A DNA stretch of 64,000 nucleotides from Saccostrea echinata (Eukaryota). Positions 46,401 through 48,066 of this stretch are shown here, piece after piece (position 1 is the first letter of the stretch; each line of letters begins with the position of its first letter). Both the position numbers and the translations under genes were made by a program. Location: the NCBI RefSeq assembly GCF_033153115.1, contig NW_026889803.1, positions 38,316,001-38,380,000 on the forward strand, given 5' to 3'. The notes beneath the pieces are model-generated. The model did no database searches. It saw only the letters and a list, made by a program, of their open reading frames with translations, and was not told the origin of the DNA.

Positions 46401-48066
46401 TCAGGAATTAAGATATCGTATGTAAGTCAAAAAGTCTCTTGCACAACATCGTGTTGCCCTGAAGTTTCCCGCTGAAAAACAGCTTCCACTGTAAATAAAA
46501 CCCAATGGACATCCGTAAGCCACATCCATCCGCAGTTCAAATGACCGGAAACATCGACAAAGGAAAGCATTCGTCCACCCAAAGCCCCAGTTCTGTTGGA
46601 ATTGTCCTAAAGATTAAACAGACATTACAGTTACAACCAATTTTTAAAAAATAGAAATTTGTAAAATTGTTTGTACAGTCTTTGTTGCCTCTAAAAGACA
46701 CATTATGTCAAATTTTCCATATCAAACCAGCCTTCTTTTTGCATTCTCCCCAAGTCTGTACCTTTATACCGTATAGCAGGCTTCTTTAGCATATGTAGAT
46801 TTTAGTGTTTTGCTTGCTCAAAGGTATGCCAATAATATTTTTGGCGGACACAGTTTCCATAAAGTTACAAAAGGGAGGATGTTCTAGATGAGTTTTCATG
46901 TACGTTTAATATGCGTAAGATGAAATACCAGATGAGAGATAATGTTTAATAAAAGACTGATCAAAGTTAAGTTATTTTACTTATATTCCGTACTTATACA
47001 CAATTGTGCAAATTTAGCGATTAAAATTTTAGCGGGCTACTATAAAACCGCTAAAATACCAGCATTTGTATAGGTGATATCACCTATTCGAATTGATGAT
47101 ACCAGCATTTGTATAGGTGATATCACCTATTCGAATTGATGATATCACCCATTCGTTTTGAATTGGTGATATCAATCATTCGAATGAGTGATATCAACAA
47201 TATTTGCATTCTTATAACATCAAATAATGAATGGGGCCTTCTTCAAGACAATCTAGTTTCAATGCAAAGTCAAAGGCTTTCAAAGAACAATTTTATATTC
47301 TTAGCATTGATTCAAAAATGATGATACTGAATTTGTTACTCATAAACAAACTGTTTTAAAAAAAAGATTGTAAAAAAAACTTTTAAAAACTTCATTCGAG
47401 CCACACTTTCTACATGTACTATTTTGGCATTGATTGATTAGATTTGGCACGGGAGAGGGGCACTGTTCATATATTACATGTATGTACACAAAAAAAGGGC
47501 CCATAGAGCACAACNNNNNNNNNNNNNNNNNNNNNNNNNNNNNNNNNNNNNNNNNNNNNNNNNNNNNNNNNNNNNNNNNNNNNNNNNNNNNNNNNNNNNN
47601 NNNNNNNNNNNNNNNNNNNNNNNNNNNNNNNNNNNNNNNNNNNNNNNNNNNNNNNNNNNNNNNNNNNTTACATATGTAAAACTAGATTTGGATTGACCCT
47701 AAGTGAATTCGAGCTGCTCTTTTCTCCTGTGTTGTAGTCTGAGACAATTTAAAACACCCATACGTTTTAATTCAAATCAAATAGGTGATATCACCAATTG
47801 AAAAGGTGATATCACTTAATGGCAGTAAATACTAAAATGTCATACTTGACAATCAAAATAGACGTCATATAAATGCTATTTCAAGACAGAAAACATATTC
47901 ATTTTGCACCTGAACAATTTATTATCATAAAATTTTCAGCACTTTTTCTGTTAGACTTCACTTTATAAACAATTAATACATAAAGAGGGGGAAACTCACC
48001 TTGAGAGTTAATTACAGATGTAGCAATAAGAAAGACACAGAGTAAACAGAAATTGTAAGCTTTCAT
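46401..48066 (-). CDS. Secreted six-cysteine trans-defensin-like peptide precursor, ~90 aa; exons 48066-48000 and 46606-46401
   Basis: MKAYNFCLLCVFLIATSVINSQ G|QFQQNWGFGWTNAFLCRCFRSFELRMDVAYGCPLGFIYSGSCFSAGNFRATRCCARDFLTYIRYLNS*. Consensus donor G|gtgagt, phase-1 acceptor tttag|GA, and ATTAAA just after the stop. The intron contains an N gap. Confidence 0.78.
47056..47820. repeat. Repeat built on palindromic 'ggtgatatcacc' units, spanning a gap
   Basis: Tandem 43-bp duplication 'ataccagcatttgtataggtgatatcacctattcgaattgatg' plus further 'gtgatatca' units at ~47140-47200 and ~47780-47815. Confidence 0.65.

What the first reader, a model, noticed from the sequence alone, without database searches (positions are those of the whole stretch)
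46401..48066. Hidden secreted peptide with sea-anemone BDS/APETx- or alpha-defensin-type cysteine framework
Seen: a signal-peptide exon plus one exon giving CxC-x13-C-x9-C-x10-CC, rich in aromatics, with 7 Arg versus 3 acidic residues in the mature region. It is not in the ORF track. Established (from memory): a CxC...C...GxC...CC layout marks alpha-defensins and anemone defensin-fold toxins. 'CPLGFIYSGSC' parallels BDS-I 'CPGGYGYTSNC' and APETx1 'CPSNRGYTGSC'. Known oyster defensins (CS-alpha-beta) and big defensins (C-x6-C-x3-C start) have different spacing. Inference: possibly an undescribed bivalve antimicrobial or ion-channel-active peptide family.
Basis: partly seen in the sequence, partly recalled or inferred. 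Interest (0 to 1): 0.8.

Follow-up and report, generated by a model that had tools for sequence, protein, structure and literature searches.

The report
Oyster peptide with alpha-defensin-like fold
A rock oyster carries a small two-exon gene, spliced in one public sequencing run, for a likely secreted six-cysteine peptide that is predicted to fold like mammalian defensins and likely serves in host defence, with a cysteine spacing not found in the oyster defensin literature searched here.

Summary
The gene is real. Two minus-strand exons (48066-48000, 46606-46401) join in phase 1 into a stop-free 90-codon frame. One 196-nt contig of run X1 skips exactly the predicted GT-AG intron, N stretch included. 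The likely mature 67-mer has C-x-C-x13-C-x9-C-x10-CC, net +4 and 15 aromatics. No true homologue was found in Pfam, PDB sequences or two protein libraries. A single-sequence model of the core (pLDDT 68) matches trans-defensins: the top 11 of 32 rows, alpha-defensins first, all at low Z of 2.6-3.4. Anemone BDS/APETx-type chains are not among those rows. It fails alpha-defensin membership: the C2-C3 gap is 13 and the Arg/Glu pair is absent. Two other genes in this genome carry modules with the exact alpha-defensin spacing; one has a Saccostrea cucullata ortholog misnamed WASL-like. Verdict: an undescribed oyster trans-defensin-fold peptide, most likely for host defence. Disulfide pairing and activity are untested, and an ion-channel toxin role has little support.

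The parts
48000..48066 (-). Exon 1: start codon and signal-peptide-like segment (22 codons + 1 nt, phase-1 donor)
   Evidence: Sequence; hydropathy; 49 nt of it lie in the spliced contig
46607..47999 (-). GT-AG intron, 1393 nt; holds the masked N stretch and repeat elements
   Evidence: Skipped exactly by one contig of run X1
46401..46606 (-). Exon 2: encodes the likely mature 67-residue peptide and the stop codon
   Evidence: 147 nt covered by the spliced contig with 5 differences; the one listed (46554) is synonymous
46560..46604 (-). 15-residue Gln/Trp/Phe-rich N-terminal arm before the first cysteine
   Evidence: Sequence; modelled as an extra strand at low confidence
46443..46559 (-). Six-cysteine core C-x-C-x13-C-x9-C-x10-CC, Pro after C3, Gly two before C4; predicted three-stranded sheet
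46404..46442 (-). 13-residue C-terminal tail, predicted helix
   Evidence: helix at mature residues 58-66, pLDDT about 58-64
46346..46351 (-). AATAAA, candidate polyadenylation signal 50 nt after the stop
   Evidence: use not shown

Best explanation
This is a spliced two-exon oyster gene for a likely secreted, cationic and aromatic six-cysteine peptide that is predicted to adopt the trans-defensin three-stranded fold and likely acts as a host-defence peptide against microbes. Shown: gene structure, one spliced transcript-like contig, composition. Predicted: signal cleavage after Gly23 (Ser-x-Gly fits the -3/-1 rule, recalled), giving a 67-mer of 7.8 kDa, pI 8.9, with three disulfides on strands 15-20, 36-43 and 51-56. 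[quoted passage not shown] It likely belongs to a loose rock-oyster family of C-terminal CxC modules.
For: Splice joint. Core model: all top 11 rows and 17 of 32 rows at Z>=2, out of 48,161 chains, are trans-defensin folds; the top five are alpha-defensins aligned over 31-32 residues, nearly their whole length, rmsd 1.8-2.4 A. Foldseek: 24 of 38 rows shown are defensins; all 21 rows of the second look are defensins. The 67-residue model gives 7 of 12 rows. The related module L039 was found without using this peptide, hits Pfam Defensin_beta at E 3.6e-4, 20.9 bits vs cut-off 21, and aligns ungapped to cryptdin-4 at E 0.012. A profile of the two C54 modules scores this peptide 11.1 bits, above all 1994 scored shuffles with cysteines fixed, mean 2.2. 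A phase-1 intron lies 5' of the cysteine exon, as in big and beta-defensin genes (PMC7203481). Net +4, 22% aromatic.
Against: Models are single-sequence (pLDDT 61 and 68, pTM 0.41-0.42; three of five models at 46 or lower) and may lean to memorised small folds. No fold match is significant alone: best Z 3.9, best Foldseek E 1.2, below the tool's Z 7-8 background for unmatched models. No sequence hit to any defensin family. The two best-supported related modules are acidic (net -5 and -6) and sit behind Pro/Arg-rich or KR-repeat segments, which does not suggest membrane killing. In 8729 local ORFs the two-module profile ranks this peptide first but only at E 0.28, and the alignment behind it was built with this peptide present. 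Phase-1 introns after signal peptides are common (recalled). No tandem copies within 264 kb, unlike oyster big defensins. Expression rests on one contig in one run; tissue and induction are unknown.
Confidence: 0.5

Rival explanations
1. Same defensin-type fold, but the peptide is a non-antimicrobial secreted ligand or matrix module (signalling, mucus, mantle or gamete surface).
For: The related modules are acidic and end precursors with a Pro/Arg-rich exon or an exon of repeats with 7 KR sites, like a prohormone. The gene looks single-copy. Oysters make many cysteine-rich regulatory peptides of unknown role (PMC8398477).
Against: This member is cationic and aromatic, has no KR sites and no repeat exon. 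The CLCCY, CCWamide and GWE alignments seen in that paper's supplement have other cysteine layouts (family labels inferred from page order).
Confidence: 0.3
2. A BDS/APETx-like ion-channel modulator used against predators or parasites.
For: Anemone toxins share the fold (PMC6627431). ATX Ia and ShI appear at Z 2.5 and 2.4, APETx1 at E 8.5. Aromatic, basic surface.
Against: No Defensin_4 match for this locus. Alpha- and beta-defensins outrank the anemone chains for the core, though rows within 1 Z unit are tied. Oysters have no known venom system (recalled).
Confidence: 0.08
3. A different fold, or a family already described under another name in papers or transcriptomes outside the libraries searched.
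For: Low model confidence; the 13-residue loop and both extensions are atypical; the paper library lacks most subscription journals, and figures were not visible.
Against: Two models and two aligners converge on trans-defensins; no homologue among 1.84 billion representatives; ten literature searches named no such family.
Confidence: 0.1
4. A chance ORF or dead gene; the contig is a processed copy or noise.
For: One contig at depth 4 in a run whose RNA status is guessed; it stops short of the ATG and the last codons.
Against: Exact GT-AG joint in the frame-keeping phase, intact ORF, exon-2 GC 0.44 vs 0.31 in the intron, synonymous listed difference.
Confidence: 0.02

Closest known systems
Mammalian alpha-defensins (HNP1/4, HD6, cryptdin-4, RK-1; Pfam PF00323)
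   Same: C-x-C start, nine residues C3-C4, ten C4-C5, terminal CC, Gly two before C4; top structural matches over nearly their whole length.
   Different: C2-C3 gap 13 instead of 3-4 (PMC515299); no Arg at C2+1 or Glu at C3+4 (PMC9872612); no long acidic pro-piece (recalled feature); 15- and 13-residue extensions; no sequence hit; connectivity unknown; host is a mollusc.
Vertebrate beta-defensins (AvBD2, hBD2, hBD4; PF00711)
   Same: Same predicted sheet; Pro after C3 and GxC; 33-41% identity to AvBD2 in structural alignments; signal exon plus cysteine exon with phase-1 intron.
   Different: C1-C2 gap is 1, not 4-8; C2-C3 gap 13, not 3-5; C4-C5 gap 10, not 4-7.
[quoted passage not shown]
   Same: Oyster trans-defensin fold (6qbk at Z 2.0); phase-1 intron 5' of the cysteine exon; hydrophobic material next to the cysteine domain.
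   Different: No pro-domain or globular hydrophobic N-terminal domain, different cysteine spacing, no Pfam match, not in a tandem cluster.
Sea-anemone beta-defensin-fold toxins (BDS-I, APETx1/2, ShI, ATX Ia; PF07936)
   Same: Fold class; CxC...CC layout (recalled); long C2-C3 loop (recalled).
   Different: No profile match; lower structural ranks; 67 residues vs 42-54; no activity data; non-venomous host.

Membership tests
trans-defensin superfamily | Six cysteines ending in CC in a secreted peptide | tested here: met
   secretion inferred from hydropathy only
trans-defensin superfamily | Three antiparallel beta-strands of defensin topology | tested here: inconclusive
   Predicted; consistent enrichment of defensin rows but Z<=3.9 and pLDDT 61-68
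trans-defensin superfamily | Two disulfides from the last strand pointing in opposite directions | not testable with these tools
   Model coordinates are not returned
alpha-defensin | Spacing C-X1-C-X3-4-C-X9-C-X6-10-CC (PMC515299) | tested here: not met
   C2-C3 gap is 13; the other gaps fit. L039, L112 and L059 modules do meet it
alpha-defensin | Conserved Arg (C2+1) / Glu (C3+4) salt bridge (PMC9872612) | tested here: not met
   Phe at both positions
alpha-defensin | Invariant Gly of the beta-bulge, two before C4 | tested here: met
alpha-defensin | Disulfides 1-6, 2-4, 3-5 | not testable with these tools
   Needs mapping or NMR
beta-defensin | Spacing C-X4-8-C-X3-5-C-X9-13-C-X4-7-CC and PF00711 match | tested here: not met
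big defensin | Hydrophobic globular N-terminal domain plus beta-like C-terminal domain; PF14862 match | tested here: not met
   Only 15 residues precede C1; no Pfam hit. Holds for the one splice form seen
BDS/APETx (Defensin_4) | Profile match to PF07936 | tested here: not met
   HMMER filters drop weak matches
BDS/APETx (Defensin_4) | Structural match to BDS/APETx chains | tested here: inconclusive
   APETx1 at E 8.5 only
BDS/APETx (Defensin_4) | Kv, Nav or ASIC modulation | not testable with these tools
   Needs electrophysiology
CS-alpha-beta (cis) oyster defensins | CxxxC helix tied to a C-terminal CxC strand | tested here: not met
   No CxxxC; CxC is N-terminal; consensus

The most novel reading that the evidence does not exclude
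Rock oysters encode a family of trans-defensin modules with alpha-defensin cysteine spacing and alpha-type (1-6, 2-4, 3-5) disulfides, a class reported only from mammals. The module is used alone as a cationic defence peptide (this gene) and as the C-terminal cap of Pro/Arg-rich and prohormone-like precursors (two other genes). This would be an independent origin of the alpha-defensin architecture from a beta/big-defensin ancestor, or a much older origin than assumed.
Probability: 0.3. Interest if true: 0.78.

Novelty: new variant of a known kind. Interest (0 to 1): 0.55.

Why it matters
Papers read here state that alpha-defensins are known only from a few mammals and arose from beta-defensins after mammals split off (PMC7203481, PMC515299). 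An oyster family with the same cysteine spacing and predicted fold makes it testable, by disulfide mapping of a 30-40-residue core, whether that switch happened more than once. It also adds a candidate salt-adapted antimicrobial to a farmed oyster genus whose listed repertoire is big defensins, a macin, BPI and lysozymes (PMC4892480), and flags a misnamed RefSeq protein. If pairing is beta-type and activity ordinary, it is one more lineage-specific defensin-fold peptide.

Tried and rejected
Sequence searches with exon 2: Pfam 0, PDB 0, word-index search 0 at 36-118 aa and 0 at 119-2000 aa, Atlas no usable hit twice. Seven representative-library hits were rejected: six are bacterial surface-repeat proteins and one a repetitive ORF, scoring by summed weak repeats without the cysteine frame. 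Own genome: protein search gave self plus one E 0.16 hit with a stop; DNA search self only; tight pattern self only; loose patterns were swamped by Thr-rich repeats. PF07936 hits L034/L035 lack the terminal CC; PF00323 gave four hits at E>2.8, not inspected. PF14862 found no big defensin although a congener has six, so these genome searches miss real genes and single-copy status is weakly shown. No RNA holder was listed on record. A wider read layout was not obtained, so X1's RNA status, the 5' end and neighbouring genes were not checked. BDS-I and APETx2 were not listed in fold searches, which does not exclude them. Earlier-findings look-ups by sequence and place were empty; the word look-up listed eight unrelated notes. 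No complex prediction was sent. Literature searches named no oyster CxC-type trans-defensin; Shafee 2016 and Mitchell 2019 were seen only as reference-list entries.

Full report
Observation. On the minus strand an ATG at 48066 opens a 67-nt exon ending in a GT donor; a 206-nt exon runs from 46606, after a pyrimidine tract and AG, to TGA at 46401. The phases agree and give 90 codons without an internal stop. The first 22 residues have a hydrophobic stretch (peak 3.6). The 67 residues of exon 2 carry C-x-C-x13-C-x9-C-x10-CC, 7 Arg, 3 acidic and 15 aromatic residues, pI 8.9. Three cysteine patterns matched 0 times in 150 simulated windows and once in the real one.

Transcript. One run was listed, at a 0.05 word share, RNA by guess. 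Laid on 46000-48500 it shows a 196-nt contig, depth 4.08, with 147 nt on exon 2 and 49 nt on exon 1, skipping 1393 nt with CT..AC ends. This is the predicted intron, and it covers the masked N stretch, so no extra exon is in this form. The contig has 5 differences in 147 nt, so it is another allele or a close species; the one difference listed is synonymous. It is one contig in one study and does not reach the start or stop codon.

Organism and neighbours. A neighbouring B-box/NHL protein clusters at 90% identity with a Saccostrea cucullata RefSeq protein, so the window is from a rock oyster or very close kin. Flanks are tandem GST genes upstream and a Ly6-like gene downstream (by eye), with Mab-21, B-box/NHL and UBX genes further off. 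No tandem copy lies in 264 kb around the gene.

Homologues. None in Pfam, PDB sequences, the 5.8-billion word index at two length ranges, or the Atlas. The full HMMER scan of 1.84 billion representatives gave 7 hits at E<=0.001, all repeat proteins without the cysteine frame. The peptide is therefore absent from these annotated collections or too diverged to see.

Fold. Single-sequence AlphaFold2 gave pLDDT 61 for the 67-mer and 68 for a 46-residue core, with three main strands holding CxC, GxC and CC. Against 48,161 representative chains, the core's top 11 rows and 17 of 32 rows at Z>=2 are trans-defensin folds. The first five are alpha-defensins aligned over 31-32 residues at 1.8-2.4 A, Z 3.0-3.4; beta-defensins follow within one Z unit and are tied; ShI scores 2.2 and the oyster big-defensin domain 2.0. 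Foldseek shows the same lean with no significant row: 24 of 38 rows shown, best E 1.2; the second look tops at Z 3.9. For the 67-mer, 7 of 12 VIA rows and 8 of 47 Foldseek rows shown were trans-defensin folds.

Related oyster genes. A Defensin_beta search of the genome (24 matches, 10 inspected) turned up L039, 22 Mb away on the same contig, whose last exon ends in C-x-C-x4-C-x9-C-x6-CC. It scores 20.9 bits on PF00711 and aligns without gaps to cryptdin-4 at E 0.012. Its S. cucullata ortholog XP_062595309 (93% identical over the exon) is named WASL-like, presumably for its Pro/Arg-rich middle exon. A pattern search (70 matches, mostly repeats, control 180; picked by eye) found a paralog 133 kb from L039 with the same spacing, a similar signal exon and a middle exon with repeated KR-flanked peptides; the frame is 200 codons without a stop and all introns are phase 1. 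Another pattern (13 matches, control 5; 8 in frame; 3 with an upstream CxC) gave this gene, L039 and L059, a cationic C-x-C-x4-C-x9-C-x9-CC stretch with a seventh cysteine and no settled gene model. Kinship to the window peptide is moderate: pairwise E 7e-4 and 5e-4; a profile of the two C54 modules beats all 1994 cysteine-fixed shuffles but reaches only E 0.28 among 8729 local ORFs. The three-module profile (E 0.003) is circular, because L059 was found with a pattern drawn from this peptide. The shared residues are partly general defensin residues.

How it likely works. Shown: a spliced gene with this composition. Predicted: export, cleavage after Gly23, three disulfides, a defensin sheet with a long first loop, an aromatic arm and a helical tail. 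Inferred: binding to anionic microbial envelopes through Arg and aromatic residues, then killing or trapping. PMC7203481 assigns salt-stable activity and nanonet formation of big defensins to hydrophobic N-terminal material, and the arm may play that part. I put host defence at 0.5, a non-antimicrobial ligand or matrix role at 0.3 (the best-supported relatives are acidic and prohormone-like), another fold or a known family at 0.1, a channel toxin at 0.08, artefact at 0.02.

Comparison with known families. It would work like a trans-defensin but is not a member of a named family. It fails the alpha consensus at the C2-C3 gap (PMC515299) and lacks the conserved Arg/Glu pair, while keeping the bulge Gly (PMC9872612). 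It fails beta spacing, has no big-defensin N-terminal domain and no Defensin_4 match. Anemone toxins pair 1-5/2-4/3-6 and alpha-defensins 1-6/2-4/3-5, so a CxC start does not settle the pairing.

Literature seen. Passages only: PMC11767717, PMC7203481, PMC4892480, PMC6627431, PMC515299, PMC9872612, PMC5484132. PMC8398477: passages, section 2.7 and supplement excerpts (130, 132-135); several supplement pages are pictures and could hide a match. Other papers were seen as search listings only. Ten searches named no oyster peptide with this framework; the library omits most subscription journals.

Verdict. Observation confirmed; interpretation partly supported, with the alpha/beta-defensin comparison favoured over BDS/APETx. 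New variant of a known kind, interest 0.55. It would reach about 0.78 if alpha-type disulfides are shown.

Noticed in passing
L039 (G000:C54:60302895-60304056, minus): Three-exon gene: signal exon, Pro/Arg-rich exon, Tyr-rich exon ending in an acidic module with exact alpha-defensin (cryptdin-4) spacing. The S. cucullata ortholog XP_062595309 is named WASL-like, which looks like a misannotation.
   Followed up: yes
L112-L113 (G000:C54:60169682-60173000, minus): Paralog of L039 with a similar signal exon, a middle exon of repeated KR-flanked peptides (7 KR sites, prohormone-like) and the same acidic CxC module, which has Lys at C2+1 and Glu at C3+4, the alpha-defensin salt-bridge positions.
   Followed up: partly
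L059 (G000:C4:2255489-2255575, minus): Cationic stretch with C-x-C-x4-C-x9-C-x9-CC and a seventh cysteine; weak PDB hit to an alpha-defensin 5 (E 0.47). Splice sites and upstream exon are unsettled, and the CC may be intronic.
   Followed up: partly
window 41573-44241, minus: Likely Ly6/three-finger-type gene next door: signal-like exon near 44241-44182 and a last exon with a CxC-x4-CN motif and hydrophobic tail (label recalled; no Pfam hit for that exon).
   Followed up: no
window 49558-52462 and 58337-58953, minus: Two tandem glutathione S-transferase genes upstream of the peptide gene (GST_C hits; theta class by eye).
   Followed up: no
window 4802-6535 (+), 7044-8108 (-), about 146-791: Single-exon Mab-21 (cGLR-like) gene facing a B-box/NHL gene; the first 800 nt of the window look like the end of a second Mab-21 copy.
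   Followed up: no
window 46756-47175 and 47680-47847: The intron holds high-copy repeats with inverted arms (opposite-strand joints 47113 to 47780/47800), possibly a MITE.
   Followed up: no
G000 whole genome: PF14862 found no big defensin although S. glomerata has six; either low search sensitivity or presence/absence variation.
   Followed up: no
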